Positions 25,995 through 48,592 of a DNA stretch of 64,000 nucleotides are shown here, piece after piece (the first letter of the stretch is position 1; each line of letters opens with the position of its first letter). A model generated the notes under the pieces. That model was given only the letters and a program-made list of their open reading frames with translations. It was not told the DNA's origin and made no database searches. The translations under genes and the position numbers were made by a program. The stretch lies in IMG/VR virus record IMGVR_UViG_3300026737_000001, one strand, 5' to 3'. This DNA comes from a virus. Lineage: Duplodnaviria > Heunggongvirae > Uroviricota > Caudoviricetes.

Positions 25995-26013
25995 TATTTT
26001 ATCCCCCTTGTTT

Positions 26014-26211
26014 TTACTCTTTATTTGAAACTTCCTTTACCATGTTTTCTATATCTAAAATAGTTTCGTGCTTTACTGTTTCGTAATCTTTTTCAGTTTT
26101 ATCATAGGCTCGTCCATCCCAATAAGTCTTTTCCAAAAGCAGATGGTATTTTATTTTATCTACTTTAGCTCTTGCTTCTTTCGAAAAGATTTTTTTAATC
26201 CATTTAATCAT
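26014..26211 (-). CDS. hypothetical protein
   Basis: ORF. Confidence 0.3.
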   Translation of the reverse strand: MIKWIKKIFSKEARAKVDKIKYHLLLEKTYWDGRAYDKTEKDYETVKHETILDIENMVKEVSNKE

Positions 26212-26230
26212 TTTTATATTCCTCCATTTT

Positions 26231-26479
26231 TTATATGCAAAGCATAATTACTATATATACAAGTGTTGAACCTGTTATAGTGTAAGCCATATCCGTCCAT
26301 TCAAAGCAACCTTTATCAAGCCACTTGTCCCAGACATATTCCTTTAATATACCAACTGTACTTCCTGTTACTAATCCAAAGAATGGGTTAATCAAACTTA
26401 AAATTAGTGTTATTAACCCTCCAGCAAAAAAGTGTTTGATATAATCAATTCTTGGTGGCTTTTCTTTTAAAAATTCCAT
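26231..26479 (-). CDS. hypothetical membrane protein
   Basis: Two TM segments. Confidence 0.3.
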   Translation of the reverse strand: MEFLKEKPPRIDYIKHFFAGGLITLILSLINPFFGLVTGSTVGILKEYVWDKWLDKGCFEWTDMAYTITGSTLVYIVIMLCI

Positions 26480-26820
26480 AAGTCTAACACCCCTTCAATT
26501 CCTTCAGAGCCAAGAGGAATTTTGTAAATTGCTACCTTTTCTTCAAGTCCTGCAATTACCCTAACTTTCATCCCAAATATAGAGCTTATTTTATCTGCGT
26601 TTTCTTTTAATTCAACAGGCATTGTTTCTTTAAATTCTTCAAAACCCTCTTTATTAAAAACAATTACATAATGATAAGACATTTCAGGCAGTGAATTTAT
26701 TGCCTCATACAAGTCATCAAGGCTTGTTTCGTCTGTATTTATTTCACATTCGACAGAATACCTATCCTTAGATATACTGTCATACCACTCAATCTGGTCT
26801 TTTGCTACCTGAGATGTCAT
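26467..26820 (-). CDS. hypothetical protein (start trimmed to 'MTSQ' because the listed N-terminus 26821-26862 lies inside the IS right end)
   Basis: The listed ORF begins within the IS subterminal hairpin. The internal ATG at 26820 is preceded by GAGGAG. Confidence 0.35.
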   Translation of the reverse strand: MTSQVAKDQIEWYDSISKDRYSVECEINTDETSLDDLYEAINSLPEMSYHYVIVFNKEGFEEFKETMPVELKENADKISSIFGMKVRVIAGLEEKVAIYKIPLGSEGIEGVLDLWNF

Positions 26821-26963
26821 GGTCTTGACGCTCCTCGGGGCAAGCCCACGAGGATTCCTCATTCATAGAGAATTGCCTACTTAAAGCATAGCAAAAGCTA
26901 GATTAATTAGGTCTTATGCTCTCTCCAAAGGCGTAAATTCGGGTAAGCCCTACCCTATATAGT

Positions 26964-28085
26964 CTATCTTATACCTAAATCTAATTTGCCTTGTTTTAAA
27001 AGATTTTTACTAGCGTTTATATCCCTGTCGTGATTTGCACCACACTCACAAGTCCAAGTGCGAACTGATAAATCTTTGACTTTAGGATTTTTAGTACCAC
27101 ATTCTGAACAGGTTTGACTACTAGCAAAAAACCTATCTGCTTTGTGTAATATGCAATTATACCACTTGCTTTTGTATTCCAGCATTGTAGTAAACATATT
27201 CCAGGCACAATCAGAAATATGTTTTGCAAGTTTAGAATTTTTAAGCATACCTTTTACATTTAAGTCCTCTATGACTAAAAGTTGGTTCTCCTTTGTTAGA
27301 CTAGTTGACAGTTTATGCAAAAAGTCTTTACGAATATTTTTGATTTTTTCATGAACTTTAGCAATTTTCTTTTTAAGTTTATACCAATTGTTACTACCTT
27401 CTTCTTTACGAGCTAACCTTCTTTGTAATTTAGCAAGTTTATCTTGATATTTAGAAAGGTGCCTAGGATTTGAAATATGTTCACCATTAGAAGTAGTTAA
27501 AAAGTCTTTAATTCCTAAATCTAATCCTAATTCACATTGATTATCTTTAACAATAGTTACTAAGACTTGTTTAACATTAATTGATATATAATATTTACCT
27601 GCTCTAGATTTAGAAACTGTAACATTATTAATTTTACCTTTAACCTCTTTAGATTTAGCAAACTTAATCCAAGATAGTTTTGGTAGTTTAATCTTATTTT
27701 CTTTAATTTCAATATTTGTTGTACCACTAGGTCTAATGAATTTTTGTGTTCTATATGATAGCCTAGCTTTTCTTTTAGATTTAAACTTAGGATAATTATA
27801 TTTACCACTAAAGAAATTCTTAAAAGCTCTATCCAGGTCTTTAAGACTTTGCTGTAAAGCTATACTATCTACTTCTTTAAGCCACTCATATTCTTTTTTT
27901 AATTGAGGCAGTTGTCTGGAATATTTAGTATATGATTGATAATTTTCTTCTTTAGTTTTTGCTAAAAATTCGTTGTAAATGAATCTAGAACAACCAATAG
28001 TTTTATCAATTAATTCTTGTTGTTCTTGATTAGGATAAATTCTAAACTTATATGCTTTGTTAATTGGCTTAAATTTTTTAATCAT
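26964..28085 (-). CDS. tnpB: TnpB (IS605 OrfB-family RNA-guided nuclease/transposase accessory protein)
   Basis: N-terminal HTH 'YKFRIYPNQEQQELIDKTIGCSRFIYN', RuvC-like core, and C-terminal zinc finger 'CSECGTKNPKVKDLSVRTWTCECGANHDRDINASKN'. Confidence 0.85.
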   Translation of the reverse strand: MIKKFKPINKAYKFRIYPNQEQQELIDKTIGCSRFIYNEFLAKTKEENYQSYTKYSRQLPQLKKEYEWLKEVDSIALQQSLKDLDRAFKNFFSGKYNYPKFKSKRKARLSYRTQKFIRPSGTTNIEIKENKIKLPKLSWIKFAKSKEVKGKINNVTVSKSRAGKYYISINVKQVLVTIVKDNQCELGLDLGIKDFLTTSNGEHISNPRHLSKYQDKLAKLQRRLARKEEGSNNWYKLKKKIAKVHEKIKNIRKDFLHKLSTSLTKENQLLVIEDLNVKGMLKNSKLAKHISDCAWNMFTTMLEYKSKWYNCILHKADRFFASSQTCSECGTKNPKVKDLSVRTWTCECGANHDRDINASKNLLKQGKLDLGIR

Positions 28086-28132
28086 TATGTTTGCCTCTTT
28101 TCTATGTTGTTAACTACATTATATCATTGTGT

Positions 28133-28160
28133 TGATATGTTGTCAACTATATGATATAAT
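28133..28160 (+). promoter_or_regulatory. sigma70-type promoter with extended -10 (TTGATA-16-TGaTATAAT) for the RHH gene
   Basis: Seen directly. Followed by RBS AGGAGG (28167-28172) and ATG 28181. Confidence 0.6.
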
Positions 28161-28180
28161 AATTTTAGGAGGTGTTCATT

Positions 28181-28333
28181 ATGTCAAGAAAAGCAGTCAA
28201 CACTACTTTAAATAAAGAATTATATAAGAAAATTAGAATATTAGCTCTAAAAAAAGGTTGCAATGCTAATGATTTAATGGAAGAAGGTATGAAGATGGTA
28301 CTTAATAAGTATGAGAACCAGGAAAAAGAATAA
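28181..28333 (+). CDS. ribbon-helix-helix (CopG/Arc-like) small DNA-binding protein, 50 aa, inside the IS
   Basis: Not in the ORF track (under 60 aa). 'MSRKAVNTTLNKELYKKIRILALKKGCNANDLMEEGMKMVLNKY' has the RHH beta-strand plus two helices pattern. Consensus promoter and RBS. Confidence 0.6.
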   Translation: MSRKAVNTTLNKELYKKIRILALKKGCNANDLMEEGMKMVLNKYENQEKE

Positions 28334-28474
28334 TTTTAAAGCAATATTTAATTACTTCAAAATTAGGCACTATTCATCCGTGAGGGCAAGCCCATCAGGT
28401 TTTCTAGTGCCTAACTTTTATAACTTCTGCCGGGAATTCAATATCATCTATAAACATTCTCATCTCTGTTGCTT

Positions 28475-30154
28475 TTACTTTTTTTCCTGTGAACTCATTA
28501 CTGATTGTATCCATCTCCTCGTAGAAGCATTTTTTACAAAATCAACAAATAAAGGGTGTGGCCTCAAAGGTCTTGACTTAAACTCCGGATGAAACTGCAC
28601 ACCAACAAACCATCTGTGTTCTTTAAGCTCCATTGTTTCAACAAGCTTTCCGTCCGGTGATAGACCTGAGAATACAACCCCGTTAGCTTCAAATAACTTT
28701 CTGTAATCATTGTTAAACTCAAAGCGGTGACGATGCCTTTCTTTTAATTCTAAATGGTCGATGTAGGCGCTGTGAACTCTTGACTTTAAAGGCTTTGCTG
28801 TAAAATCATAAGAGCCAAGCCTCATTGTTCCGCCCTTGTTAACAACCTCTCTCTGCTCATTCATGAGGGTTATTACAGGGTTTTTAGTTTCACTGTCAAA
28901 CTCTAAGCTGTTGGCATCTTCTAGTCCTAACTCATTTCTGGCAAATTCAATAGCTGCAACCTGCATGCCAAGACAAATACCAAAGTAAGGGACCTTATTT
29001 TCTCTTGCATATTTAGCCGCCTTTATCTTGCCTTCAATGCCTCTCTCACCAAATCCACCAGGGACTAATATTCCATCATATCCTTTTAATGTTATTCTAA
29101 CTGCTTCATCACAGCTTAAATCTTCAAGCTCTTGAGAGTCAATAAATGTAATATCAACATCGAGATGATTTTTAAGACCTGCATGTATTAAAGCCTCTTT
29201 GATGCTGAGATATGCATCTTCGAGCTGTGTATATTTTCCCACAACTGCTATATTTACCTTTTCTTTTTTTTCTTGTAAATTTACAAGCATATGCCCCCAG
29301 TCATCTATATCTTGAGGATAACTCTGAAATGATTTAAAACCAAGTTTCTCCATTACCTTTTTAGCCATATCCTGACCTTCATATTTGAGAGGTATTTCAT
29401 AAATGTGCTCTACATCAACTGACTCAAATATTAATTCCTTGTCTATATCTCCAAATAAAGAAATCTTATCCCTTATTTCTTCAGGCATTTTATCTTTAAT
29501 TCTGCCGACTACAGCATCAGGCTGAACGCCAAGACTTCTAAGCTCCTTTAAGCTCTGCTGGGTAGGTTTTGATTTGTACTCTCCTACTTTATGCATGTAA
29601 GGAATTAATGTGCAGTGAACATGGAATGTGTTATCAAAACCTAAATCATGTCTTAACTGCCTTACAGCCTCCACAAAAGGGAAGCTTTCAATATCTCCTA
29701 CAGTGCCCCCGAGTTCAATTAGTATCACATCAGTCTTATCGTCTTCCGGCATGGTCATCCTGCGCTTTATCTCATCAGTGATATGAGGTATTACCTGTAT
29801 TGTCTTACCTAAGTATTTGCCTTTTCTTTCGTTATCTAAAACTTCCTGATAGATTTGACCTGTTGAGACAGAATTAATTCCAGAAAGCTCTATATCAATA
29901 AACCTTTCATAGTGGCCAAGGTCTAAATCAGTTTCTGCTCCATCATTGGTAACAAAAACCTCTCCGTGTTCTATAGGGTTCATTGTCCCAGCATCAACAT
30001 TTATATAGGGGTCAAATTTCTGAACCTTAATATTTAACCCTCTAGCTTTAAGTAACATTCCAAGCGATGCAGAAGTTAACCCCTTTCCTAATCCAGAGAC
30101 AACCCCTCCTGTCACGAATATATATTTAGTTTTCTTACTCACACTCATCAACAC
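28475..30154 (-). CDS. pyrG: CTP synthase
   Basis: Full-length 559 aa. 'KYIFVTGGVVSGLGKG' at the N-terminus, glutaminase-domain 'GICLGMQ' and 'GGTMRLG'. Confidence 0.9.
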   Translation of the reverse strand: MLMSVSKKTKYIFVTGGVVSGLGKGLTSASLGMLLKARGLNIKVQKFDPYINVDAGTMNPIEHGEVFVTNDGAETDLDLGHYERFIDIELSGINSVSTGQIYQEVLDNERKGKYLGKTIQVIPHITDEIKRRMTMPEDDKTDVILIELGGTVGDIESFPFVEAVRQLRHDLGFDNTFHVHCTLIPYMHKVGEYKSKPTQQSLKELRSLGVQPDAVVGRIKDKMPEEIRDKISLFGDIDKELIFESVDVEHIYEIPLKYEGQDMAKKVMEKLGFKSFQSYPQDIDDWGHMLVNLQEKKEKVNIAVVGKYTQLEDAYLSIKEALIHAGLKNHLDVDITFIDSQELEDLSCDEAVRITLKGYDGILVPGGFGERGIEGKIKAAKYARENKVPYFGICLGMQVAAIEFARNELGLEDANSLEFDSETKNPVITLMNEQREVVNKGGTMRLGSYDFTAKPLKSRVHSAYIDHLELKERHRHRFEFNNDYRKLFEANGVVFSGLSPDGKLVETMELKEHRWFVGVQFHPEFKSRPLRPHPLFVDFVKNASTRRWIQSVMSSQEKK

Positions 30155-30848
30155 CGAGAGCCATCATATTATTATCGCAGATAGTCATATCAAGGTATTC
30201 CTGAATCTCCAGCAAATCCTCGTCTGTCATATCAGAAAGCTTGTCATACACCTTATCAATTGCTGTCTCTTCAACATAAGTGTGGCTTACAATTTCGATA
30301 TCTCCACCAACAAACGGTGTAAGGTCCATAGCCGCCAGAATAGACATTGTTATCTTTTCAGTAGGCTCAACTTCATCAAAACTATTTAAAGCGTACATAG
30401 CCCCCAAAGCTACCTCTCCACCGGAACCTATAGCGGTAAAGTCTTCACTTCCGATACCAACCTGAAAGTCATAGTCGATTCTATAGAGCTCATTTTTATA
30501 TGCTACTAAAAATAAACCGCCAAACTCTTTGTTGTCCTGGTCGACACCCATAATACCGTTTTTATCAAAAAGTCTCCTAACTTCATCGATAAATGTCGTG
30601 GCCATATAGCCGTGGTCTGTCTGAGAGTCTTTCTGTGCCGGAACATCTAACTTATACTGTAATACCTGTCCCATTCTATAAGAGCCCGCAAAACCTATTG
30701 TGAAATCACCTGAAGCAAATACCTTGCCGTCTTTCCTGTTTTCTTTTGTGTAATTTGTAGAGCCAACAGTGTCAGCGCCAATATATATTTTGTTTTCTTT
30801 TTCTGCTTTAAATCCAACTACACATGTCATTAAATAAACCACTTCCAA
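30135..30848 (-). CDS. HslV/proteasome-like Ntn-hydrolase peptidase
   Basis: 'TCVVGFKAE...IYIGADTVGS' and 'GSGGEVALGAMYAL' parallel HslV 'TTIVSVR...GDGQ' and 'GSGG'. 237 aa (longer than HslV). Overlaps pyrG by 20 nt. Confidence 0.5.
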   Translation of the reverse strand: MEVVYLMTCVVGFKAEKENKIYIGADTVGSTNYTKENRKDGKVFASGDFTIGFAGSYRMGQVLQYKLDVPAQKDSQTDHGYMATTFIDEVRRLFDKNGIMGVDQDNKEFGGLFLVAYKNELYRIDYDFQVGIGSEDFTAIGSGGEVALGAMYALNSFDEVEPTEKITMSILAAMDLTPFVGGDIEIVSHTYVEETAIDKVYDKLSDMTDEDLLEIQEYLDMTICDNNMMALGVDECE

Positions 30849-30968
30849 TCCTTTTTAAAATTAAATTTGCTTTTTTATTTTCTGTGATGTAAAATTAAAA
30901 AATTTACTGCCTATACTTTTGTTGTTTAAGTAAACCTATATAAGAAGGTGCCTTCTTTTATTGTATTA

Positions 30969-30997
30969 TTGACAATCAAAATCGTACGAGATACAAT
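30969..30997 (+). promoter_or_regulatory. sigma70-type promoter TTGACA-17-TACAAT
   Basis: Seen directly. Followed by RBS GAGGTGAGG and ATG 31017. Confidence 0.55.
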
Positions 30998-31016
30998 TAA
31001 TACAGAGGTGAGGTAT

Positions 31017-31244
31017 ATGTCAAAAAAGAAAAAAATAGAAAGAATAGAATTCAGTGGCACTATTGACCCCGACCTGTATTATGAAATTAAGATGCTTTCT
31101 TTAAGGCTTAGAAAGATTGGTATTAAGCGTAATATAAATGAATTAACCGAAGAAGGATACCGTTATATCCTTAAAAAATATTACTCAAAATACCAAAAAC
31201 TAGGCCAGTCACACTCTAAGTATGTCGAAGAAGATTTAGATTAA
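31017..31244 (+). CDS. small basic protein (start moved from the listed 30948, which would include the promoter)
   Basis: 'MSKKKKIERIEFSGTIDPDLYYEIKMLSLRLRK...' with a terminator immediately downstream. Confidence 0.45.
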   Translation: MSKKKKIERIEFSGTIDPDLYYEIKMLSLRLRKIGIKRNINELTEEGYRYILKKYYSKYQKLGQSHSKYVEEDLD

Positions 31245-31273
31245 GAGGCGGAATTACCCGCCTCTCTTTTTTT
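31245..31273 (+). terminator. rho-independent terminator
   Basis: GAGGCGG-aattac-CCGCCTC followed by TCTTTTTTT. Confidence 0.7.
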
Positions 31274-31438
31274 ACAATGAATTTTTCATCTCCCAAATAA
31301 GCCAAGCTACCAAGAATAAAAACCCCTCAAGTAATAACTTGCCCGACAAAGCAATGTCTGCCAGTAAAAATGATACTGCAATCAGGAAAAATCCAAATCC
31401 TCCAATCATTAGTCCTATAAAATCCTCATCAAACATCA

Positions 31439-32539
31439 TTATTCCATCGCTCCATTAATTTCATTTAAGATACCCATTATACCAGGCATTGAACCTATAC
31501 CACTTCCGTCTTCTGGAGTAACGATAATCTTCATCTTCTCATTGATACTTGTAACTGCTTTAGTCTGCAGGTCAAGCTTTCTATCAGCAAAATATACATC
31601 TGTATAAGCCTGCTGTTTTTCTAATTCTGCTTTCTTTTCCAGGATAGCTGCCTCATATTTATTTTTGGCTGCCATTTTAATAGCCTCTGCTTTTCTTTCA
31701 ATAGAATAAGCTTCTGCATCCGCTTTTCTTTCCTTCTCGTAAGCATCGGCATCAGCAGCTGCCTTCCTTTGAATAAGTTCCTGCTTTGACTCAGCTTCCT
31801 GTCTTGCAACCTCTTTAGCGTTAACCTCCGCCTGTCTTTTAGCATCTAATTCAGCAAGTTCTACCTCATTAATAGCTGATGTTTTACGGTTAATCTCTGC
31901 CTGAATTTCCTGTGGAACTAAGATATTTCCGAATTCAAATCTGATTAGTTTGATACCATATTTATCAGAGAGTGTATCTCTTAAATTCTCAAAGATTTCT
32001 GTCTGCATATCGCTTACCTTAGCTTGAAAATTGTAGACTGAAGTTTTTCTGGTAACTTTTTTAACTTCACCTTTCATAACCCCGTAAAGTTCGTCATCCA
32101 CGATAGTCTCGAAGTCTTTTTTAACGCCCCAGTTTTTGATAATCTTAGCAACATTCTCAGGCTGTACTGACATATAGATATCAACTATTACATTTTTACC
32201 TTCAATTGTTCCTGCTTCAATAGAATCGTCCTGCTTTGAGCCTTCCTGCTCGTTTTTAGTCCAGTTCCTGCTGATGATAGTAGTAGGTGATATATACATT
32301 TCTTGAGTAAAAGGATTTAGCCAAACCAATCCATATCGTGGTTGATTGATTACTGAAGTACCTTCTAATACAGGCACACTATTTTCTCCCGGGTTATCAG
32401 GGTCAATAGTTCTATCATATATATAACCAACAAAACCTGGCTCTATATTATCAGTCACCATGAAGAAACCTACACCTGCTAAAACCACTAAAATACCAAA
32501 TACTATAAGTCCTATAAAACCTTTTTGTTTATTATTCAT
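31439..32539 (-). CDS. SPFH/band-7 (prohibitin/HflC-like) membrane protein
   Basis: N-terminal TM, SPFH core, Ala/Glu/Lys-rich coiled-coil tail 'AEAIKMAAKNKYEAAILEKKAELEK'. Confidence 0.6.
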   Translation of the reverse strand: MNNKQKGFIGLIVFGILVVLAGVGFFMVTDNIEPGFVGYIYDRTIDPDNPGENSVPVLEGTSVINQPRYGLVWLNPFTQEMYISPTTIISRNWTKNEQEGSKQDDSIEAGTIEGKNVIVDIYMSVQPENVAKIIKNWGVKKDFETIVDDELYGVMKGEVKKVTRKTSVYNFQAKVSDMQTEIFENLRDTLSDKYGIKLIRFEFGNILVPQEIQAEINRKTSAINEVELAELDAKRQAEVNAKEVARQEAESKQELIQRKAAADADAYEKERKADAEAYSIERKAEAIKMAAKNKYEAAILEKKAELEKQQAYTDVYFADRKLDLQTKAVTSINEKMKIIVTPEDGSGIGSMPGIMGILNEINGAME

Positions 32540-32560
32540 TAAATAAATCCCCCTATTTTT

Positions 32561-32704
32561 TTATTCATCTTTATTTTCTTCATCTTCCCAGTTAAAATAC
32601 TTATTAATAGCACTTCCTATCTTCGGAAATATAGAAAAGATTGATACTCCTATAACCATAACTATTAATAAAACAAAAAATATAAACATAAAACCCCAAC
32701 CCAT
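32561..32704 (-). CDS. small single-TM membrane protein (47 aa) upstream of the SPFH gene
   Basis: Not in the ORF track. 'MGWGFMFIFFVLLIVMVIGVSIFSIFPKIGSAINKYFNWEDEENKDE'. Confidence 0.35.
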   Translation of the reverse strand: MGWGFMFIFFVLLIVMVIGVSIFSIFPKIGSAINKYFNWEDEENKDE

Positions 32705-32768
32705 AAAATCATCCTTTCACTTGATTGGTTTATTAAACTTCACTAAACCTCTAATCCTAAAAAAAGAA

Positions 32769-32942
32769 TTAACTGTTTACATAAAAATTCTTGCCTTTAA
32801 AACTTATACCCGGAGCCTTTTTAAATATTCTTTTTATGCTGCCTCTACATTCAGGACATTCTTCTAATGGCTCCTCACTTATCTTCTGCATTTTAGAAAA
32901 CTGGTAACCGCAATCTTCACACCTATAATTATATGTAGGCAA
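32769..32942 (-). CDS. FmdB-family zinc-ribbon protein (57 aa)
   Basis: Not in the ORF track. TTG start after GAGGAGG. '(M)PTYNYRCEDCGYQF...CPECRGS' gives CxxC...CxxC. Confidence 0.5.
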   Translation of the reverse strand: MPTYNYRCEDCGYQFSKMQKISEEPLEECPECRGSIKRIFKKAPGISFKGKNFYVNS

Positions 32943-32970
32943 TTCATCTACCTCCTCGTACCCAATAAGT

Positions 32971-33585
32971 TCAACTTCTTTTTTTGTAACTATCTTCTGA
33001 TATATGTTTTTTCATGTTTTCTGCCAACTCTTTGTTTACTTCTAATAAATCTACTATATATTGTTTCCTTTTGAAAGGAGCTGAGTTAAAAATAAATATC
33101 TGTTTTAAATTATAGTCTTTAATAAAATGTTCTCTTATTTTTGCTACCTTTTTATCAGAGACTTCCATATCCTCAAAAATTAAAGTATCGATTTTTTCTG
33201 TATAACCATGAACTCCTTCATATATATTTCTAATCGCAGAATCTGATGTTCCAGATAAAAAGAATATTTTTCTTCTTTCAATTTCATCATTTTTATTTAA
33301 AATCCAGTACTGAATTATTCTCCTATCCTTAGTAGTATAACTTATATGATTTTTAAGAGATGATATTTTTTTAATCGCTGATTTAAAACATTCATCTTTT
33401 TGCCTACTGTATTTAAAGTATCTTACAACAACTTCATCTCTTAAAGATAAATTATTTGCAAGCTCTGTTTTGCCTGTTATTCTTGCTCCTTTAACTTCTA
33501 TAACTGATGACTTATCATTAAAAACTTCAAAAACTTCCTCCTGCCATTCATATAATTTTATGGTAAATCCCCCTCTCTTTTTAAC
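32971..33585 (-). pseudogene. P-loop NTPase (nucleotide-kinase-like) reading frame lacking a canonical start; possibly frameshifted
   Basis: The frame is open from the TAG at 33586-33588 and contains Walker A 'GARITGKT', but has no ATG/GTG/TTG before Met-33168. The ATG at 33551 is in another frame and stops after 17 codons. RBS AAGAGAGGGGGA at 33568-33579. Confidence 0.35.
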
Positions 33586-38107: not shown

Positions 38108-39182
38108 CTAATTAGCTTTCTTAAAGAAATCTCCTTCAATCAATTTAACTTTATCAACCAGCATTGCATTACTTTTATCTTTTTTACCTTCAAGTTTTAA
38201 TTTAAAACCTTTTTGAAATAAGTCATGATTGGAGCGATATGTGTCCGGAAAAACTACAAGTTTAATCTTATTTTTATCTGTTTTAACTTTTGCAAAAGCC
38301 ATTAATTTATTTGACTTTCTGGTTTTAACCTCTTTAGATTCTGTAATTATGCCTTCCACCTCTAAGACCTCTCCGCTTTTAGCAAAATCCCATTCAGAAG
38401 GATAGGTTAAAGATAAACCGATTGTGTCCATTTCGAATTCAATAATTTCTTCTTTTGTGGGTTCTGGTTCGTCAAAAACTCCAGAACCTTCCTCATTTTT
38501 GAAGGCATCAAATAGTGACTGCCTCATCTGTCCAAACTCTTTAATAGTCTTGTAATCTACAAGTAATTGTTTTCTGTTTTTGCCGAATGAATCCATTGCC
38601 CCAGCTTTAATTAAAGATTCAAAAGCTGTCTTATTAACAACTCTTGTATCAACCTTCTGGTACATATCATCTAGGTCTTTAAACGGTCTTTGATTCATTA
38701 TTTCGGTGCTTGCTTTTTTACCTAAACCATCAATCGCATTTAAACCCAGTCTTATCTTCCCGTTAACAGCTGTAAAGCGCCCTTCTGACTCGTTAATGTC
38801 AGGAGGTAGTATATCTATCTTCTTTTTATAGCAGTCCGAGAAATAGTCCGTAATCGAGCTGTCAGAGCCACTCTTTGCTGCTTCAACACTCATGATAGCT
38901 GCATAGAACTCTGCCGGAAAATGGTATTTAAGGTAAGCAGTGGCATAAGATATTAATGCATAGCAAGCAGAATGTGATTTATTAAAGCCATAGCCGGCAA
39001 AATATTCGATTAATCTAAACATTTCATCAGCAAATTCTTCTGTGTGGCCATTTTCTTTAGCTCCTGCTTTAAACTTAACTTTCATTTTTTCTAATACTTT
39101 TATTTTCTTTTTTCCCATTCCACGCCTTAATATATCTGCCTCTCCCAGGCTGAAGTTAGCAATTATCTGTGCAGTTTTCATT
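38108..39182 (-). CDS. dnaE: DNA polymerase III alpha subunit DnaE, exon 3 (C-terminal part)
   Basis: '(V)MKTAQIIANFSLGEADILRRGMGKKK' corresponds to DnaE 'YQEQVMQIAQ...LGEADLLRRAMGKKK'. The codon is completed by splicing (see intron). Confidence 0.85.
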
Positions 39183-40758
39183 CAATTATGTTATCGCAAA
39201 AGCTTTTTATCTTCTGCTTCTATATCTGCTATCTTTACAAATATAGTTCGGCATACATTTTCACCTTATTTAAGGTGTCGAACACTCGTGGAGAGATTAT
39301 ATTTTACATATAAATGTAAGTTCACTCTCTATGCTCTACGGTATTAACAGATTTTTAGGTCTATTAATTACCTCGGTATTATCACATATAATATCCATTC
39401 TTTTTCTTTTTCTTGGTAGCCAAATATTAGCATCTTTGTACATGTATTTATATAGCTTTTTAGAAAATGATATACCACTTTGAAAGTAATATAGATTAGT
39501 ACTTTTATGGATTGTTTTATTGCTTTTTATTACCTTTTGTATAGATTTAAGCATTTTTTTATTTCCACAAAACCCACTTCTCTTACTTTTTTTGATGCAA
39601 GTTATGCCATCTCCATCAAAAAACCCTCTAATAAAGTGTCTATACATATTATCAGGTATTTGAAAGGGAAATGATTCTTTTCCCGTCTTATTAGGTATAA
39701 CACCATATTCAAATAATTTTTCAGTCATATGTCTTGATGTTAAGCTACATCTGCAACAGTAACCTTTTTTTGAATATCCAGAATTTTTACCAACATAAGG
39801 ATTAAGAGAACTTTCTAAGTGGCTTAAAAACCCATAAATAATCTCTTTGTCCTTTAAGGCTACACCTAATTTTATAGAATATTGACCATTATAGATAGAA
39901 GTGTTTCCATCAGCCATTAAAAAACCCAAAAAATAAGCTTTTTCTTCTTTGTTTATTTTATCAAAAAAATCTTCTTTTTTTATGCTATTCTCTAATCCTC
40001 TTTTTATATCAAAACCTTCTTTCTTTAACCATAATGAAATAGTGTTTCTATTAATACCTGTTTCAGTTGCTATTTCACATAAATATAATCCTGATTTATA
40101 AAGATTAACAACTCTTTTTTTATAAACATCTTTATATCCTATTTTATCCCCATGATTAAATTTTGAATTTTTTGTTAGTCCAGCATTTCTTAAATATTTA
40201 TACACTGTACCAACACTTATATTCAATAATTTTGATATTTCTTTTCCAAACTTACCTTCATTATAAAGGTCCATTATTTTTTTGATTTTATATTCACTTA
40301 TTTTTTCAGTTTTTTTAGATTTTTGTGGATTTTGTAAACTTATATCAGATTCATTAATCCATTTATAAATTGTACTTCTGCAAGGCATAATTTCCATTTT
40401 AGAAATATCAGTAACAGAAATGCCATCGCCATACATGTTTAATGCTTTTATTTTGCGTTGACTACTTTTCATCTTTATCACCTTCTACATATTGAAAGAG
40501 TATATACCTAACCATTTCAGAAAAATTAATTCCTTTTTTGTCAGCTATTTTTTGAATGTCTTCTTCCAGCTGTTCCGGTAAATAAATATTTCTTCTTTTC
40601 ATTTTTATCATCTCCAACGTGTGGTATTTGTATCACCTTGCATACATTATTATAACACACATTGAATCATTTTTCAAATTATGGATATTTAGATAGTGGC
40701 TTCACCGATTTTGCTCGATAATAATCTAGCTTATTTCTAAGCTGGACGGCAATTTCTT
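39183..40758 (-). other. group I-like intron in dnaE (intron 2), 1576 nt, carrying a LAGLIDADG HEG
   Basis: Exon 2 ends '...CAGGU' (U before the 5' splice site). The intron ends '...AATTG' (terminal G). Joining gives CAG GTA ATG = Q-V-M, restoring the conserved DnaE YQEQVM. A stop codon follows the exon 2 junction in frame. Confidence 0.7.
39336..40481 (-). CDS. LAGLIDADG homing endonuclease (double-motif) with N-terminal HTH modules, intron-encoded
   Basis: 'YFLGFLMADGNTS' and 'FIRGFFDGDGITC'. Confidence 0.8.
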   Translation of the reverse strand: MIKMKSSQRKIKALNMYGDGISVTDISKMEIMPCRSTIYKWINESDISLQNPQKSKKTEKISEYKIKKIMDLYNEGKFGKEISKLLNISVGTVYKYLRNAGLTKNSKFNHGDKIGYKDVYKKRVVNLYKSGLYLCEIATETGINRNTISLWLKKEGFDIKRGLENSIKKEDFFDKINKEEKAYFLGFLMADGNTSIYNGQYSIKLGVALKDKEIIYGFLSHLESSLNPYVGKNSGYSKKGYCCRCSLTSRHMTEKLFEYGVIPNKTGKESFPFQIPDNMYRHFIRGFFDGDGITCIKKSKRSGFCGNKKMLKSIQKVIKSNKTIHKSTNLYYFQSGISFSKKLYKYMYKDANIWLPRKRKRMDIICDNTEVINRPKNLLIP

Positions 40759-42710
40759 ACCTGTTCCTGGTATACTAGGTAACCGTATGTTTCCTCTAAT
40801 TCCTTTTTTAAACTTTCGTGTGGATATTCTACTTTTTCATTACCGTGCATTCTGTCGAAATATTTTTCCACAATACCAGCTTCAAGTGGTCCCGGGCGAC
40901 CGAGAGCAAGTATAGCAATTATATGCTCGAACTTTGTAGGTTTCATTTTCTTTAACAGCCTTTTAAATAGTTGTGATTCTACCTGAAAAACCCCGTTGGT
41001 ATCAGCCTTCTGATAGATGTTTTTATATACATCTTTATCATCAAGAGGTAAATCCCAAATGTTTTGTACTGTAGGCTTATACTCTAAGCTATCATAATCT
41101 TTTCTGTTCTTGATAAACTTAATAGCCTCACCTATGATAACAACAGTCTTTAACCCTAAGAAATCCATCTTGAGCAAACCTAAATCTTCGCTATCGTGCA
41201 TCTCTGTCTGAGTTACATATGTTATCTCACCAGTCTGGCTGTTTTTGGTTCGTGCTAAAGGTGTGTAATCATCAACAGGCTCTGGAGTAATAACAACTGC
41301 TGAGGCATGTGTACCTAACTGTCTAGGCTTACCTTCTAGCTTTTGAGCTATATCGAATAGTTTTGGATACTGTTCAGCATACATCTTAAGTTCTTTACTT
41401 TCTTCCAGTGCTTCCTTGATTGAAATACCTGGGGTATCGGGAAATGCCTTTGATATCTCTTTATTCATTAGATTGTAATCATATCCTAATACTCGGCCTA
41501 CATCTTTAACAGCTGATTTAGCACCTAGTGTACCAAAGTTACAGATACTTGCTACATTTTCTTCTCCGTATTTGTCGATTACATACTGGATAACTTTTCC
41601 TCTATTTCCAAAATCTATATCAATATCAGGCATAGCAGTTCTTTCAGGATTTAAGAATCTTTCAAACAGCAGTCCATACTTAACAGGGTCTAAGGCTGTG
41701 ATGCCTAAAAGATAGGATAGAAGTGAGCCTGCTGCAGACCCTCGACCAGGACCAACAATGATGTTATTATCTTTAGCCCACTGAACATAATCTTCAACAA
41801 TTAAAAAGTAGGCAGGATACCCCTTCATATTTATAACCTCAAGCTCTGTATCAAGCCGTCTGGCGTATTTATCCATATCAATGTCTTTTTCTACAGCCAA
41901 CTCAAAAAGCTTCTTAAAGGCCCTTTCTTCAAGGTATGACTCAAGTGTATAACCTTCAGGAACTTCGAACTTAGGAAGGAGTAAATTACCTAAATCAAGC
42001 TCGACTGTATCACATTTATCGGCAATTTTTACTGTATTCTCAACTGCACTATCTCTGGCATCTATAAAATCAGACTCTACACTTTTTGCAAAAAGCTGAC
42101 TTTTTATCTCATCTTCACCCTTAAAATAGTATGAATCTCCATGAAATCTAAATCTGTCATTATCTTCAACTTTTGCCCCTGTTTGAATACATAGCATAAC
42201 GTCATGAGCTTCTATACTGTCCTTTTCTAGATAGTGCATATCTGATGTAGCTACAAGCTCTATATCTAATTTTCTAGCTAAATTTGCAAGCTTTGAGTTC
42301 ATTACGTACTGCTCTGATACATCGTTGGCCATAATCTCTATATAGAAATCATCACCAAAAAGTTTTTTATATTTTAGAGCTATTTCTTCTGCTCTTTCAT
42401 TGTTGTTATTCTCTAAGGCTCTTGGTATCTCTCCTGCAAGGCAGGCAGAACTTACTATAAGTCCTTCAGAATGCTCTTTTAAAATTTCAAAATCTATTCT
42501 TGGTTTATAATAAAAACCTTCTGTATTTGACTTACTCACCATCTTAAAAATATTATCCAATCCTTTTTTATTTTTAGCAAGGATTATAAGGTGGTGTCTT
42601 TTACCTTCTTTATCATGCATGTCATTAGCTACATATACTTCAATTCCAAATATATGTTTAATTTCTTCTTCTTTGGCTGCTTTATAAAGCTCTACGAAAT
42701 TATGGATACT
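40759..42710 (-). CDS. dnaE: DNA polymerase III alpha subunit DnaE, exon 2 (PHP remainder plus polymerase core)
   Basis: 'GPGRGSAAGSLLSYLLGIT', 'FLGLKT', ends 'GYLVYQEQV'. Confidence 0.85.
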
Positions 42711-43840
42711 CAATTGTGTTATCCTACAAGTTTTTTACCATGTAGTTCTTGCAGTTCATTTCCTGCAAGTTCAGCATACCTTTTGCCCACCAGCATTACC
42801 TGTGAGGACAGGAGTCTCTTGGAAAAATTATATTCTTTAATACAAATTAAAGTTTCATTTTCTATGCGTTGCCCCTGACTAATATTTTAAAATTAGCCTT
42901 CGGTTCGGATTGGCTTCTCAGCTTTCCCGCTTAATACTCCTGTAATAATTCTAAACATTCCTGTTTAGAACGGCAAATTTATCATGTTTTCTCTTTAAAT
43001 ATATATTAGCATCTTTATATAGGTAGTCTTTAATTTTCAAAACAGCAAGCCTTCCTGACTTTCTTATTTTGTACATATCAGATTTATGAAATTTTGGTTT
43101 TTGCATAAATATATCATTTTTTTCAAACTCATCAGATATTTCATTTAGCATATCTTTATAGCCCATTATATAAAATTCACAATTTAAAGAGTTCTTGTGA
43201 TGGTTATCATTTCTTATTGAATATGATATACATCCATCACCGTCAAAGTAACCTCTTATAAAATGATTCATATATTCTTCTTTTATATTTGGTAATGAGT
43301 TTGTGTTTTTTACACCTAGTTTTATTAAGTCTTGATATATTTTTTTATTGGTAAAAGACAGAGTATATTGTCCAATATTACTATATCTATCCTTTCTTGG
43401 TTTAATGTAATATAATGGACCTGCATAACCAACTTCATTTTTTACATCTAAAAGAAGTTTTTTATCATCTTCTTTTAAACCAATAGAGGCCACATAACTT
43501 CTTCCTGAAATATATACGCTTCCATCTGAATAAAATAATCCTAATATATAGGCTTTCTCTTTAGAATTTATTTCAGAAAAATATTTTTGATTTATTTTAT
43601 ATTGTGGTTGACCTCCTGGATTTCTTGATTTTATATTATACTCTTTGAAAGTCGTTTGTATTTTTGAAGCACTTACATTAAAATATTTTCCTATATCTTT
43701 ATGACTTAAACCATCATTATAAAGATTTTTCATTTCATTAATTTGTTTTGTAGAAAAAATAATTTTTTTAGTAATTTTTATCACCCTCTTTAGCTTAAAG
43801 GTGCTAATATATTTATAATTATAACATGATATTAATGTTT
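42711..43840 (-). other. group I-like intron in dnaE (intron 1), 1130 nt, carrying a LAGLIDADG HEG
   Basis: Exon 1 ends '...GAC CAC GGU' and the intron ends '...CACAATTG'. Joining gives 'TDHG|SIHNFVELYKAAK', collinear without gaps with Firmicute DnaE 'TDHGNMFGAIEFYKAAK'. Confidence 0.65.
42951..43784 (-). CDS. LAGLIDADG homing endonuclease, intron-encoded (paralog of 39336..40481)
   Basis: 'YILGLFYSDGSVY' and 'FIRGYFDGDGCIS'. The N-terminal HTH resembles the other HEG. Confidence 0.8.
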   Translation of the reverse strand: MIKITKKIIFSTKQINEMKNLYNDGLSHKDIGKYFNVSASKIQTTFKEYNIKSRNPGGQPQYKINQKYFSEINSKEKAYILGLFYSDGSVYISGRSYVASIGLKEDDKKLLLDVKNEVGYAGPLYYIKPRKDRYSNIGQYTLSFTNKKIYQDLIKLGVKNTNSLPNIKEEYMNHFIRGYFDGDGCISYSIRNDNHHKNSLNCEFYIMGYKDMLNEISDEFEKNDIFMQKPKFHKSDMYKIRKSGRLAVLKIKDYLYKDANIYLKRKHDKFAVLNRNV

Positions 43841-47875: not shown

Positions 47876-48592
47876 TTAATTTCTTATTCTTACATTATCA
47901 ATATACTCTTCAGCAATGCTTTTAAATTCCTTTAACTTTTTTTCACTAAAACCATTTTTGCCACAGAGTTCTTTATTATAAGTAGAATCACCTTTGAAAT
48001 TCTGGATAAAATACCAGTCAGAATTTATTATCTGAGAGGCGATTTCTCTAATGTCCTCACTTTCATGCATTCCTGGTACTACTGTGGTTCTGATTTCATA
48101 CTGAACATCATATTTTTCTTTGGCCTGATATATATTATATAAAGAGCGTTTAATCTTATCTAAATTAATCTTGCCTCCTAATGAGCCGTATCTCTCATAT
48201 GGCATTTTAAAATCCATTGCTATATAATCTATAAGACCAGAAGACGCAAGGTATAAAAGTTTTTTAGGATAGGAACCGTTAGTATCAATCTTAACTTTTA
48301 ATCCCATAGTTTTAACTTTTTCAAGGAATAATTTTAAATCATCAATATCCTGCATTAAGGGCTCTCCACCAGTAATAGTAACTCCATCTATCTTTCCTTT
48401 TCTTTCGTTTAGGAACATTAAAATTTCATCTTCGTTAATTAAATTTTCTTTGTCTTTTATATCTTCACTTATTAATGATGGGTTGTGGCAGTAAGGACAT
48501 CGTAAATTACAACCCTGAGTAAATAAGATTGTAGAAATATGTTCTGGATAATCCATCAAAGAAGTCTTTTGTATTCCTGCAAATTTAATCAT
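47876..48592 (-). CDS. nrdG: glycyl-radical enzyme activating protein (anaerobic RNR activase NrdG-like)
   Basis: 'ILFTQGCNLRCPYCHNP' and 'TITGGEPLMQ'. Confidence 0.55.
   Translation of the reverse strand: MIKFAGIQKTSLMDYPEHISTILFTQGCNLRCPYCHNPSLISEDIKDKENLINEDEILMFLNERKGKIDGVTITGGEPLMQDIDDLKLFLEKVKTMGLKVKIDTNGSYPKKLLYLASSGLIDYIAMDFKMPYERYGSLGGKINLDKIKRSLYNIYQAKEKYDVQYEIRTTVVPGMHESEDIREIASQIINSDWYFIQNFKGDSTYNKELCGKNGFSEKKLKEFKSIAEEYIDNVRIRN

What the first reader, a model, noticed from the sequence alone, without database searches (positions are those of the whole stretch)
28475..30848. Phage-encoded CTP synthase fused in operon with an HslV/proteasome-like peptidase
A full-length pyrG overlaps by 20 nt with an Ntn-hydrolase protein bearing HslV hallmarks (N-terminal Thr context, GSGG). 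No HslU ATPase is visible in the window. A stand-alone HslV-like protease co-transcribed with a nucleotide biosynthesis gene is unusual. It could be an Anbu/BPH-type self-compartmentalising peptidase.
Basis: partly seen in the sequence, partly recalled or inferred. Interest (0 to 1): 0.5.

Follow-up and report, generated by a model that had tools for sequence, protein, structure and literature searches.

The report
Phage stand-alone proteasome-like peptidase beside pyrG
A large phage of low-GC bacteria carries a small proteasome-like threonine peptidase gene that overlaps a full-length CTP synthase gene; the peptidase belongs to a widespread but biochemically untested phage family already described in the literature, so this is a new member of a known kind.

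Summary
pyrG is full length (28475..30148, minus strand, 557 aa from the ATG). The upstream gene is 30135..30830 (231 aa from the ATG).

The upstream protein is a proteasome-fold Ntn hydrolase. It starts Met-Thr-Cys with no propeptide. It has the Thr1/Asp17/Lys33/Gly45 equivalents (T2, D20, K36, G46) and a GSGG motif.

It fails the curated HslV models (23-24 bits against cut-offs of 137-158) and falls below the Pfam Proteasome threshold. It matches PHROG 1040 (E 2e-25), and its family profile and AlphaFold model match BPH slightly better than HslV.

Its taxonomic distribution and four-helix core fit AAH, a phage-spread group I proteasome homologue (Fuchs, Alva, Lupas 2021). I found no experimental study of the family.

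No HslU or other AAA+ unfoldase lies in the window or beside 174 related loci.

The tight pyrG linkage occurs only in this phage lineage. However, pyrimidine and dNTP genes (ThyA, ThyX, TK, RNR, dCMP deaminase) recur near these genes in unrelated phages.

Verdict: new member of a known kind, modest interest.

The parts
30135..30830 (-). Gene for a 231-aa stand-alone proteasome-like (group I, AAH-like) N-terminal-threonine hydrolase. The ATG start is at 30830 and the TAA stop at 30137..30135.
   Evidence: ORF. PHROG 1040, E 2.1e-25. All homologues start M-T-C. JGI called the gene at 231 aa. AlphaFold2 model pLDDT 94. Foldseek finds BPH then HslV.
30825..30827 (-). Codon of Thr2. After removal of the initiator Met this becomes Thr1, the predicted catalytic nucleophile. 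It is followed by a nearly invariant Cys.
   Evidence: T2 is invariant in 119 sequences and C3 is present in at least 90%. It aligns with Thr1 of BPH and HslV.
30771..30773 (-). Codon of Asp20, the equivalent of proteasome Asp17.
   Evidence: Invariant in alignment A2. It aligns with the GAD/GGD motif of BPH and HslV. The codon gac was read.
30723..30725 (-). Codon of Lys36, the equivalent of proteasome and HslV Lys33 (BPH Lys37).
   Evidence: Invariant in A2. It aligns with the catalytic Lys of BPH and HslV. The codon aag was read.
30417..30428 (-). GSGG motif (residues 135-138). It is the equivalent of the Gly-Ser-Gly loop that holds Ser129 (proteasome) or Ser124 (HslV).
   Evidence: G135 is invariant and G137 is present in at least 90%. 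The Ser position varies (S/C/A/T/I) across the family.
30138..30269 (-). Lineage-specific acidic C-terminal extension (residues about 188-231, two predicted helices at 190-199 and 203-224). It is absent from the roughly 180-aa bulk of the family.
   Evidence: Only P0001-P0006 share it. pLDDT is 88-96 up to about residue 220.
28475..30148 (-). pyrG, a full-length glutamine-hydrolysing CTP synthase (557 aa from the ATG at 30148; 559 aa from the GTG at 30154).
   Evidence: NCBIfam PRK05380 793.9 bits and TIGR00337 757.3 bits. Pfam CTP_synth_N 389 bits plus GATase 137 bits. The same gene was called at 557 aa in L171.
30135..30148 (-). 14-nt overlap between the 3' end of the peptidase gene and the 5' end of pyrG. 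There is no intergenic space and no good Shine-Dalgarno element for pyrG, which implies co-transcription and probable translational coupling.
   Evidence: Sequence read. The same 14-nt overlap occurs in the 74%-identical relative L002 and in L171/L172.

Best explanation
The 231-aa product of 30135..30830 (minus strand) is a catalytically competent, stand-alone member of the proteasome-like Ntn-hydrolase superfamily. It belongs to the phage-disseminated group I branch, most probably the 'AAH' family of Fuchs, Alva and Lupas 2021, which is PHROG 1040.

Proposed mechanism:
1. Deformylase and methionine aminopeptidase remove the initiator Met. This exposes Thr1, whose hydroxyl is the nucleophile and whose free amine acts with Lys33 and Asp17 (here K36 and D20). 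G46 supplies the oxyanion hole. No propeptide autolysis is needed.
2. By analogy with its closest solved relatives, BPH and HslV, the subunits assemble into stacked rings that enclose the active sites.
3. The complex acts without a dedicated phage unfoldase. It cleaves peptides, unfolded proteins or specific protein substrates in the infected cell during the replication and nucleotide-metabolism phase.

In this phage lineage the gene sits directly upstream of a full-length CTP synthase, shares its transcript and is probably translationally coupled to it. That linkage reflects shared timing inside a nucleotide and replication gene module, not a two-protein machine.

What is shown: the fold, the catalytic residues, family membership at the PHROG level, the absence of a linked ATPase, and the lineage-restricted pyrG adjacency.
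What is inferred: Met removal, ring assembly, proteolytic (rather than other) chemistry, and the timing of expression.
For: Fold and superfamily:
- PHROG 1040 'peptidase HslV family', E 2.1e-25.
- The family profile matches BPH 5ovu at E 1.1e-8 and HslV 1m4y/1g3i at 2e-8 to 6e-8.
- The AlphaFold2 model has pLDDT 94 and pTM 0.84.
- Foldseek top hits are BPH 5ovs/5ovu (E 1e-11, target-normalised TM 0.75-0.80), then HslV, then 20S beta subunits.

Active site:
- T2, D20, K36, S50, R52, D121, G135, A141 and G143 are invariant in 119 homologues. C3 and G46 are present in at least 90%.
- These residues align with the catalytic Thr, Asp, Lys and Gly of BPH and HslV. The BPH residues are as defined in PMC5777263.

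No propeptide: homologues start at M-T-C.

Not PPH: the model has all four core helices (H51-60, H72-90, H138-149, H156-170). PPH lacks helix H2 and is about 140 aa long (PMC8665760).

Distribution fits AAH (compared with PMC8665760): alpha-proteobacteria, Actinobacteria, Bacillota, Myxococcota and phages.

No unfoldase:
- The window has none.
- No HslU-like or classical AAA gene lies within 6-10 kb in 174 related loci (2.36 Mb), apart from one Bacillus element.
- In GenBank the HslU-like phage genes sit mainly in other phage groups.

pyrG linkage is lineage-specific:
- It is adjacent and overlapping in L002 (74% identity) and L171/L172.
- It lies 2.9 kb away, behind seven genes, in L001 (52-55% identity).
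- It is absent within 10 kb in 0 of 80 IMG/VR loci.

Module context in the window: DnaB, thymidylate kinase, NrdD/NrdG, guanylate kinase, nucleobase permease, Pol III alpha, RecJ and a DnaD-like protein, all on the same strand.
Against: - No member of this family has demonstrated activity. Its closest characterised relative, BPH, was inert in standard protease assays (PMC5777263).
- Pfam Proteasome is below its gathering score for this sequence (17.4 against 22.4 bits).
- The Ser129-equivalent position is not conserved across the family.
- Oligomeric state was not modelled.
- Only 64 kb of a genome of at least 82 kb, and possibly more than 200 kb, was examined. An unfoldase could lie elsewhere, or a host AAA+ protein could be used.
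- No convincing sigma70-type promoter was found directly upstream of the gene, so the transcription unit and its timing are inferred.
Confidence: 0.7

Rival explanations
1. It is a true, if divergent, HslV. It works as the proteolytic core of an HslVU-type ATP-dependent protease, using an HslU (ClpY/CodX) supplied by the host or encoded outside the window.
For: - There are weak but full-length alignments to the HslV equivalog models (NF003964 23.8 bits, TIGR03692 23 bits).
- HslV structures are strong fold matches (target-normalised TM 0.62-0.78).
- Some jumbo phages do encode HslU-like ATPases.
- The contig extends beyond the window.
Against: - Scores are about six times below the curated HslV cut-offs.
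- BPH, which lacks an unfoldase partner (PMC5777263), is the closer relative by both sequence profile and fold.
- No HslU homologue lies in the window or within 6-10 kb of 174 related loci.
- The family-specific invariant motifs SFRMGQ and DFQVG have no counterpart in HslV.
- Phage genera carrying this family and those carrying HslU-like genes largely differ, judging from partial lists.
Confidence: 0.08
2. The peptidase is functionally tied to nucleotide-precursor metabolism. It might process, activate or degrade PyrG or other phage or host nucleotide enzymes or their regulators. On this reading the overlap with pyrG is a true functional operon.
For: - The overlap suggests translational coupling with pyrG.
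- Pyrimidine or dNTP genes recur within about 4 kb in unrelated phages: NrdA-NrdB-DHFR-ThyA directly upstream in T5-like phages; ThyA and TK in Vibrio phage henriette; NrdAB in Pseudoalteromonas J2-1 and NrdB in Vibrio 1.101.O; dCMP deaminase in 121Q; ThyX adjacent in a Bacillus element; TK and dCMP deaminase adjacent in L037/L046/L077; TK and PyrG in L001.
Against: - No single nucleotide gene is a conserved partner.
- pyrG is within 10 kb in 0 of 80 IMG/VR loci, and only 4 of those loci have any detected nucleotide gene.
- Other contexts are unrelated: TerL-peptidase-portal in small phages, DNA ligase in a 447-kb contig, an upstream ORF family (9 loci) that looks like an HD-domain protein by eye, not scanned, hypothetical genes in the Moorella phage, and chromosomal sites in Myxococcota.
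- Large lytic phages cluster nucleotide genes with other early and middle genes, so co-location may reflect timing alone. No background frequency was computed.
Confidence: 0.1
3. It uses the proteasome-type active site for chemistry other than bulk proteolysis. Candidates are sequence-specific protein ligation or transpeptidation, as in connectase, or hydrolysis of a non-protein amide.
For: - The superfamily includes the monomeric ligase connectase (PMC8665760).
- BPH and Anbu show no protease activity in vitro (PMC5777263).
- The family has its own invariant residues next to the active-site loop (S50, R52, Q55, D121). These could define a special substrate pocket.
Against: - The fold is the compact four-helix group I type without the connectase S3/S4 insertion (against the description in PMC8665760).
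- The nearest relatives are ring-forming.
- There is no positive evidence for any alternative substrate.
Confidence: 0.08
4. It is a virion morphogenesis protease that processes head or scaffold proteins.
For: In five small IMG/VR phages the gene lies between the large terminase and portal genes (L064, L068, L072, L073, L076). Pfam confirmed this in L064, L072 and L073; in L068 the flanking genes were assigned by clustering only, and L076 has no upstream sequence.
Against: - In this window it sits in the replication and nucleotide module, on the opposite strand from the structural and lysis genes and more than 10 kb from them.
- L064 already has a canonical S78 prohead protease next to its capsid gene.
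- Most contexts are early or middle gene regions.
Confidence: 0.04

Closest known systems
[quoted passage not shown] This corresponds to PHROG 1040 'peptidase HslV family'.
   Same: - Compact group I proteasome-like fold with no propeptide and the catalytic Thr/Asp/Lys/Gly.
- Spread by phages, including into Firmicutes.
- Taxonomic distribution of close homologues: alpha-proteobacteria, Actinobacteria, Bacillota and phages.
- PHROG 1040 hit at E 2e-25.
- Like AAH, and unlike PPH, it keeps helix H2 and has a core of about 180 aa.
   Different: - It carries a 45-aa acidic two-helix C-terminal extension found only in its closest relatives.
- It is overlapped by pyrG.
- T5-like PPH proteins match only residues 6-151 at about 28% identity.
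- Direct comparison with the published AAH reference (WP_035979212) was not possible.
BPH (beta-proteobacterial proteasome homologue; PDB 5OVS, 5OVT, 5OVU)
   Same: - Best solved match by sequence (E 3.5e-4 for the single sequence, 1.1e-8 for the profile) and by fold (target-normalised TM 0.75-0.80).
- Thr-Cys N-terminus.
- No partner unfoldase.
- A hydrophilic, slightly acidic pore-loop region of similar length.
   Different: - Only 21-22% identity.
- The family-specific invariant motifs SFRMGQ and DFQVG are absent from BPH.
- BPH occurs in cellular genomes; the published table lists no phages (PMC8665760).
- The tetradecameric double heptamer ring of BPH was not tested here.
HslV (ClpQ/CodW), the peptidase of the HslVU ATP-dependent protease
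   Same: Same superfamily, size class and catalytic residues, GSGG loop, and Met-Thr start without a long propeptide.
   Different: - Fails both curated HslV equivalog models by about six-fold.
- No adjacent hslU.
- BPH is the closer relative.
Phage-encoded CTP synthase (PHROG 28378)
   Same: Full-length two-domain PyrG that matches the phage family at E 1.5e-211.
   Different: It is rare among deposited phage genomes. Only 17 of 50,697 records match, and most look like host DNA in unannotated 'phage' contigs. The clearest viral case is a 595-kb uncultured phage.

Membership tests
Proteasome-like Ntn-hydrolase superfamily (MEROPS T1 / Pfam PF00227 clan) | Four-layer alpha-beta-beta-alpha proteasome subunit fold | tested here: met
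   The AlphaFold2 model has pLDDT 94. Foldseek gives probability 1.00 to BPH, HslV and 20S beta subunits, with 933 PDB chains at E<=1e-3.
Proteasome-like Ntn-hydrolase superfamily (MEROPS T1 / Pfam PF00227 clan) | N-terminal nucleophile Thr plus the Asp17, Lys33 and Gly47 equivalents | tested here: met
   T2, D20 and K36 are invariant and G46 is present in at least 90% of 119 homologues. They align to the catalytic residues of BPH and HslV.
Proteasome-like Ntn-hydrolase superfamily (MEROPS T1 / Pfam PF00227 clan) | Pfam PF00227 score at or above the gathering threshold | tested here: not met
   17.4 bits against a gathering score of 22.4. Several homologues (P0006, P0010 and others) carry precomputed PF00227 hits.
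HslV (NCBIfam TIGR03692 / NF003964 equivalogs) | Score at or above the curated equivalog cut-off | tested here: not met
   23.0 bits against 157.75, and 23.8 bits against 137.
HslV (NCBIfam TIGR03692 / NF003964 equivalogs) | A partner hslU gene, normally adjacent | tested here: not met
   There is no HslU-like sequence in the 64-kb window or in 174 related loci, and no AAA+ ORF in the window. The rest of the phage genome was not available.
HslV (NCBIfam TIGR03692 / NF003964 equivalogs) | Dodecamer of two hexameric rings, with pockets for the HslU C-terminal tail | not testable with these tools
   Only monomer prediction was available.
BPH | Closest sequence and structure relationship to the BPH crystal structures | tested here: inconclusive
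   BPH is the top hit, but at 21-22% identity and only marginally ahead of HslV. The family signature motifs are not shared.
BPH | Tetradecameric double heptamer with a long, highly acidic pore loop | not testable with these tools
   Oligomer not modelled. The loop at residues 91-105 has similar length but is only mildly acidic.
AAH (Fuchs et al. 2021) | Clusters with the AAH reference sequences (e.g. WP_035979212) | not testable with these tools
AAH (Fuchs et al. 2021) | Compact group I subunit with helices H1-H4, no propeptide, and a distribution across alpha-proteobacteria, Actinobacteria, Firmicutes and phages | tested here: met
   Four core helices. M-T-C start. Homologues occur in Rhizobium, Mesorhizobium, Devosia, Frankia, Aeromicrobium, Paenibacillus, Bacillus relatives and Myxococcota, and in 405 IMG/VR contigs.
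PPH (Fuchs et al. 2021) | About 140 residues, lacking helix H2 | tested here: not met
   The core is about 180 aa and H2 (residues 72-90) is predicted with pLDDT above 95.
Anbu | Anbu-type subunit with a long C-terminal coiled-coil helix H5, and closest similarity to Anbu structures | tested here: not met
   No Anbu chain is among the top 50 Foldseek PDB matches or in the listed PDB sequence hits (the 7 single-sequence hits and the best 60 of 122 profile hits).
CTP synthase PyrG (TIGR00337 / PRK05380) | Full-length synthetase and class I amidotransferase domains above the equivalog cut-off | tested here: met
   793.9 bits against 308, and 757.3 bits against 462.75, covering model positions 2-529 of 534.

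The most novel reading that the evidence does not exclude
Phage proteasome-like hydrolases may be a dedicated accessory of the phage nucleotide-precursor programme. They might remove or process host or phage enzymes or regulators of pyrimidine and dNTP synthesis. That would explain why unrelated phages place the gene beside PyrG, ThyA/ThyX, TK, RNR, DHFR or dCMP deaminase, and why this lineage couples its translation to CTP synthase. An invariant Arg (R52) maps, by alignment, to a position that lines the proteasome S1 pocket. If that mapping is right, the enzyme could have an unusual, charge-directed specificity.
Probability: 0.1. Interest if true: 0.7.

Novelty: new member of a known kind. 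Interest (0 to 1): 0.3.

Why it matters
Proteasome-like peptidases carried by phages form a large family: more than 3,000 clusters at 50% identity match this family's profile at E<=1e-30. No substrate, partner or phenotype is known for any of them, and their best-studied cellular cousin, BPH, is inert in standard assays.

This example adds little that is new in kind. It does give a clean case for experiments: an intact active site, no propeptide, no linked ATPase, and tight coupling to CTP synthase. It also feeds a testable generalisation, that these genes tend to lie in phage nucleotide-metabolism modules. If that association proved functional, it would give the first handle on what viral proteasome homologues do.

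Tried and rejected
- Megablast of 28000-31500 against GenBank phages found no match, so there is no close isolate to borrow annotation from.
- PADLOC scan of the peptidase and six neighbouring ORFs found no defence-system family.
- Search for a conserved partner. I clustered all ORFs from 80 IMG/VR loci and 80 cellular loci. No neighbour is shared across clades. High-GC loci gave many spurious antisense ORFs.
- HslU and classical AAA tblastn against the window and 174 loci found only the query's own Bacillus element.
- Repeat search over 25500-33500 looked for cassette borders around the peptidase-pyrG pair and found only short, low-identity repeats. I rejected the idea of a mobile cassette bounded by the two RHH genes.
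- SPFH/NfeD-style pairing with the upstream Band-7 gene was rejected. The neighbour is conserved only in near-identical contigs (L171, L173) and not in L002 or L001.
- Class II glutamine amidotransferase (Ntn, Cys1) feeding PyrG was rejected. The fold and triad are proteasome-type, and PyrG has its own class I amidotransferase domain.
- Literature searches for experimental work on phage HslV-like, AAH or PPH proteins found only the 2021 bioinformatic survey and routine annotations.
- The rest of the phage genome could not be retrieved. The exact protein occurs on an 82-kb contig and in a 0.2-1 Mb size class, but only flanks are served.
Full report
**1. What is in the sequence**

On the minus strand there are two overlapping ORFs: 28475..30154 (559 aa from a GTG) and 30135..30848 (237 aa from a TTG).

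The downstream ORF is a full-length CTP synthase.
- NCBIfam PRK05380 scores 793.9 bits (cut-off 308) and TIGR00337 scores 757.3 bits.
- Pfam finds CTP_synth_N at 389 bits and GATase at 137 bits.
- The GICLGMQ and HRHRFE amidotransferase motifs are visible in the translation.

The upstream ORF scores weakly against curated models.
- Pfam Proteasome gives 17.4 bits, below the gathering score of 22.4.
- The NCBIfam HslV equivalogs give 23-24 bits against cut-offs of 137 and 157.75.
- It matches PHROG 1040 'peptidase HslV family' at E 2.1e-25.

**2. Corrected gene models**

All 119 aligned homologues begin Met-Thr-Cys. In a profile search of 1.84 billion representative proteins, nearly every hit aligns from its own residue 1. 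JGI called the identical gene at 231 aa on an 82-kb contig. The ATG at 30830 has a GGAAGTGG element 8 nt upstream, whereas the TTG at 30848 has no room for one.

The peptidase gene is therefore 30135..30830, and it has no propeptide.

For pyrG, gene callers in L171 and L002 use the ATG at 30148. That gives 557 aa and a 14-nt overlap. With no intergenic space and no clear ribosome-binding site for pyrG, co-transcription and translational coupling are the natural inference.

**3. What the upstream protein is**

T2, D20, K36, S50, R52, D121, G135, A141 and G143 are invariant in 119 homologues. C3, G46, Q55 and the DFQVG block are nearly invariant.

In HMMER alignments to BPH and HslV, T2, D20, K36 and G46 fall on the catalytic Thr1, Asp17, Lys33 and oxyanion Gly. 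These roles are defined experimentally for BPH in PMC5777263.

The closest solved sequence is BPH 5ovu, at E 3.5e-4 for the single sequence. The family profile gives BPH 1.1e-8 and HslV 2e-8 to 8e-6.

An AlphaFold2 model built on the 119-sequence alignment has pLDDT 94 and pTM 0.84. Foldseek against the PDB puts BPH first (5ovs/5ovu, E about 1e-11, target-normalised TM 0.75-0.80). HslV follows from several species (TM 0.62-0.78), then 20S beta subunits. No Anbu structure is in the top 50.

The model has the four core helices H1-H4 and two extra C-terminal helices (190-199 and 203-224). That acidic extension is shared only by the closest relatives, P0001-P0006.

**4. Placement in the literature**

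Fuchs, Alva and Lupas (2021, PMC8665760) surveyed proteasome homologues. They defined 'group I' as HslV, BPH, AAH, CPH, PPH, RPC and DPH.
- PPH is about 140 aa, lacks helix H2, and occurs in Caudovirales and their hosts.
- Group I members other than HslV have no propeptide and no known unfoldase.

The present protein keeps H2 and has a core of about 180 aa, so it is not PPH. T5-like phage proteins, which fit PPH, match only residues 6-151 at about 28% identity.

Its close homologues in cellular genomes come from Rhizobium, Mesorhizobium, Devosia, Methylobacterium, Frankia, Aeromicrobium, Paenibacillus and Bacillus relatives, many Myxococcota, and others. There are 435 loci among 185,579 species genomes. 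This fits AAH, but I could not compare with the published AAH reference sequences, so the assignment is probable and untested.

The family is large.
- 203 GenBank phage records match by tblastn, including the more distant PPH-type relatives.
- 405 IMG/VR contigs match one motif.
- 3,266 clusters at 50% identity match at E<=1e-30.
- 35 viral predicted structures match at E<=1e-3.

Four literature searches found no experimental characterisation.

**5. Partner ATPase**

The window has only three Walker-A ORFs: guanylate kinase, thymidylate kinase and DnaB.

tblastn with E. coli HslU finds nothing in the window or in 174 related loci totalling 2.36 Mb. It is validated by 97% matches to annotated HslU.

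A classical AAA ATPase lies 2.7 kb upstream in one Bacillus element only. In GenBank phages, HslU-like genes occur mainly in Erwinia and Salmonella jumbo phages, not in the groups that dominate the peptidase hits.

The contig extends beyond the window, so absence from the whole genome is not shown.

**6. Is the pyrG linkage meaningful?**

- In the 74%-identical relative, the same 14-nt overlap with pyrG is present (L002).
- In the 52-55%-identical relative, pyrG lies 2.9 kb downstream. Seven genes separate them, including thymidine kinase and an HNH endonuclease (L001).
- None of the 80 best IMG/VR loci has pyrG within 10 kb.

Tight coupling is therefore a feature of this lineage only.

Inspection of independent isolates shows a looser theme.
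- T5-like phages have NrdA-NrdB-DHFR-ThyA directly upstream.
- Vibrio phage henriette has ThyA, TK and peptide deformylase within 4.4 kb.
- Pseudoalteromonas J2-1 and Vibrio 1.101.O have RNR genes and an adjacent PhoH-like gene.
- Aeromonas 4L372XY has a PhoH-like gene and a second, tandem copy of the peptidase gene.
- E. coli 121Q has dCMP deaminase, a ClpP-like protease and a PhoH-like gene nearby.
- A Bacillus element has ThyX next door.
- Three IMG/VR loci have TK and dCMP deaminase adjacent.

Other contexts do not fit this theme.
- Five small phages have the gene beside portal. Pfam confirmed TerL-peptidase-portal in three of them, and one of those also has a canonical S78 prohead protease.
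- A 447-kb contig has DNA ligase next door.
- Nine huge-phage loci share an upstream ORF family that looks like an HD-domain protein by eye but was not scanned.
- Moorella phage MTATph1 has only hypothetical genes nearby.
- Myxococcota carry the gene at chromosomal sites.

I computed no background frequency. The association is suggestive, and shared early or middle timing is the most economical explanation.

**7. Local anatomy**

The pair sits in a minus-strand replication and nucleotide module. The module contains:
- DnaB, an HD protein, thymidylate kinase and a sigma factor;
- NrdD with an intein, NrdG and guanylate kinase;
- a nucleobase permease;
- Pol III alpha split by an endonuclease ORF;
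- RecJ, a DnaD-like protein and an SPFH protein.

Two paralogous plus-strand RHH genes flank the pair. Each has a near-consensus sigma70 promoter, and the upstream one ends in a terminator hairpin. No strong sigma70-type promoter precedes the peptidase gene. Transcription may depend on read-through or on the phage sigma factor; this is an inference.

**8. Mechanism proposed**

After deformylation and methionine removal (Thr is a permitted second residue for methionine aminopeptidase; established knowledge), Thr1 is the nucleophile. Lys33 and Asp17 assist it, and the backbone amide at G46 forms the oxyanion hole.

By analogy with BPH and HslV, the subunits form stacked rings that sequester the active sites. 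With no dedicated unfoldase, the substrates would be peptides, disordered proteins or specific targets in the infected cell during DNA replication.

The invariant R52 aligns to proteasome position 53, which I recall as one of the residues lining the S1 pocket. This could impose charge-directed specificity, but it is inference from alignment, not from coordinates.

Rival readings are scored in the report: true HslV with a host HslU, a functional link to nucleotide metabolism, non-proteolytic chemistry, and a morphogenetic protease. None is excluded outright, and each has specific evidence against it.

**9. Verdict**

It is wrong on HslV, Anbu, the propeptide and rarity.

This is a new member of a known but uncharacterised phage family. 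Interest is modest. It rises only if the nucleotide-module association proves functional.

Noticed in passing
window 28172-28333 (+) and 31017-31244 (+): Two paralogous small ribbon-helix-helix genes (37% identity, E 1e-7) lie on the opposite strand inside the minus-strand module and bracket the peptidase-pyrG pair. Each has a near-consensus sigma70 promoter (28132-28160 and 30969-30997). The second is followed by a terminator hairpin at 31244-31265 and preceded by a perfect 7-bp inverted repeat (AAGAAGG-tg-CCTTCTT, 30944-30959). They may be early regulators of the flanking minus-strand genes.
   Followed up: partly
window 26964-28085 (-): A TnpB / IS605 OrfB-type gene (OrfB_IS605, Cas12f1-like TNB and HTH domains) sits just downstream of pyrG. 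A 12/12 consensus sigma70 promoter at 28146..28118 lies divergent to the first RHH gene. No TnpA was seen.
   Followed up: no
window 46200-47387 (-): The phage encodes a xanthine/uracil-family nucleobase permease (Pfam Xan_ur_permease, 222 bits). A membrane transporter is an uncommon auxiliary gene. It fits the heavy investment in nucleotide supply seen here (PyrG, NrdD/NrdG, guanylate and thymidylate kinases).
   Followed up: no
window 38108-42713 (-): DNA polymerase III alpha is split into two ORFs (40737..42713 and 38108..39181) by an ORF with HTH and endonuclease domains (39336..40481). This suggests an intron or a homing-endonuclease insertion. A free-standing LAGLIDADG ORF lies at 42951..43784.
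   Followed up: no
window 49622-52663 (-): The anaerobic ribonucleotide reductase NrdD carries an intein with a LAGLIDADG domain (Intein_splicing and LAGLIDADG_3 between the two NRDD halves). Its radical-SAM activase lies at 47876..48592.
   Followed up: no
window 31272-32539 (-): An SPFH/Band-7 protein (366 aa) and a 55-aa hydrophobic ORF lie upstream of the peptidase gene. The neighbour is conserved only in near-identical contigs (L171, L173) and not in L002 or L001.
   Followed up: partly
L064, L068, L072, L073, L076 (IMG/VR): In a subset of smaller phages the homologous peptidase gene is placed next to the portal gene. Pfam confirmed a large terminase upstream and portal downstream in L064, L072 and L073. 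L068 was assigned by clustering only, and L076 has no upstream sequence. L064 also has a canonical S78 prohead protease.
   Followed up: partly
L176 3633-4130 (Vibrio phage henriette) and L016 10576-10968: A peptide deformylase gene lies next to, or two genes from, the peptidase gene in two unrelated phages. Exposing the catalytic Thr1 requires deformylation and Met removal, so this is suggestive, but it rests on two cases only.
   Followed up: no
L179 4001-5397 (Aeromonas phage 4L372XY); L177, L178, L179, L180: The Aeromonas phage has two tandem 'HslV family' genes, which could form a hetero-oligomer. PhoH-like ATPase genes lie within about 0.4-2.8 kb of the peptidase gene in four marine or enteric phages.
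   Followed up: no
L004/L005 and many L092-L158 loci (Myxococcota): Close homologues are abundant in Myxococcota/Polyangiaceae chromosomes, in non-phage-looking contexts with Ser/Thr kinases and conserved local synteny. This suggests a cellular role in that phylum.
   Followed up: no
phage collection hits H41-H54 and H60-H71: Many unannotated GenBank 'phage' records (Listeria LM 4-11-1, Staphylococcus SA 1306 Kay, Salmonella S.Kent 1-2-1 and others) carry host-like pyrG and hslU at identities typical of bacterial chromosomes. These are probably host DNA filed as phage, which inflates counts of 'phage' pyrG and hslU.
   Followed up: no
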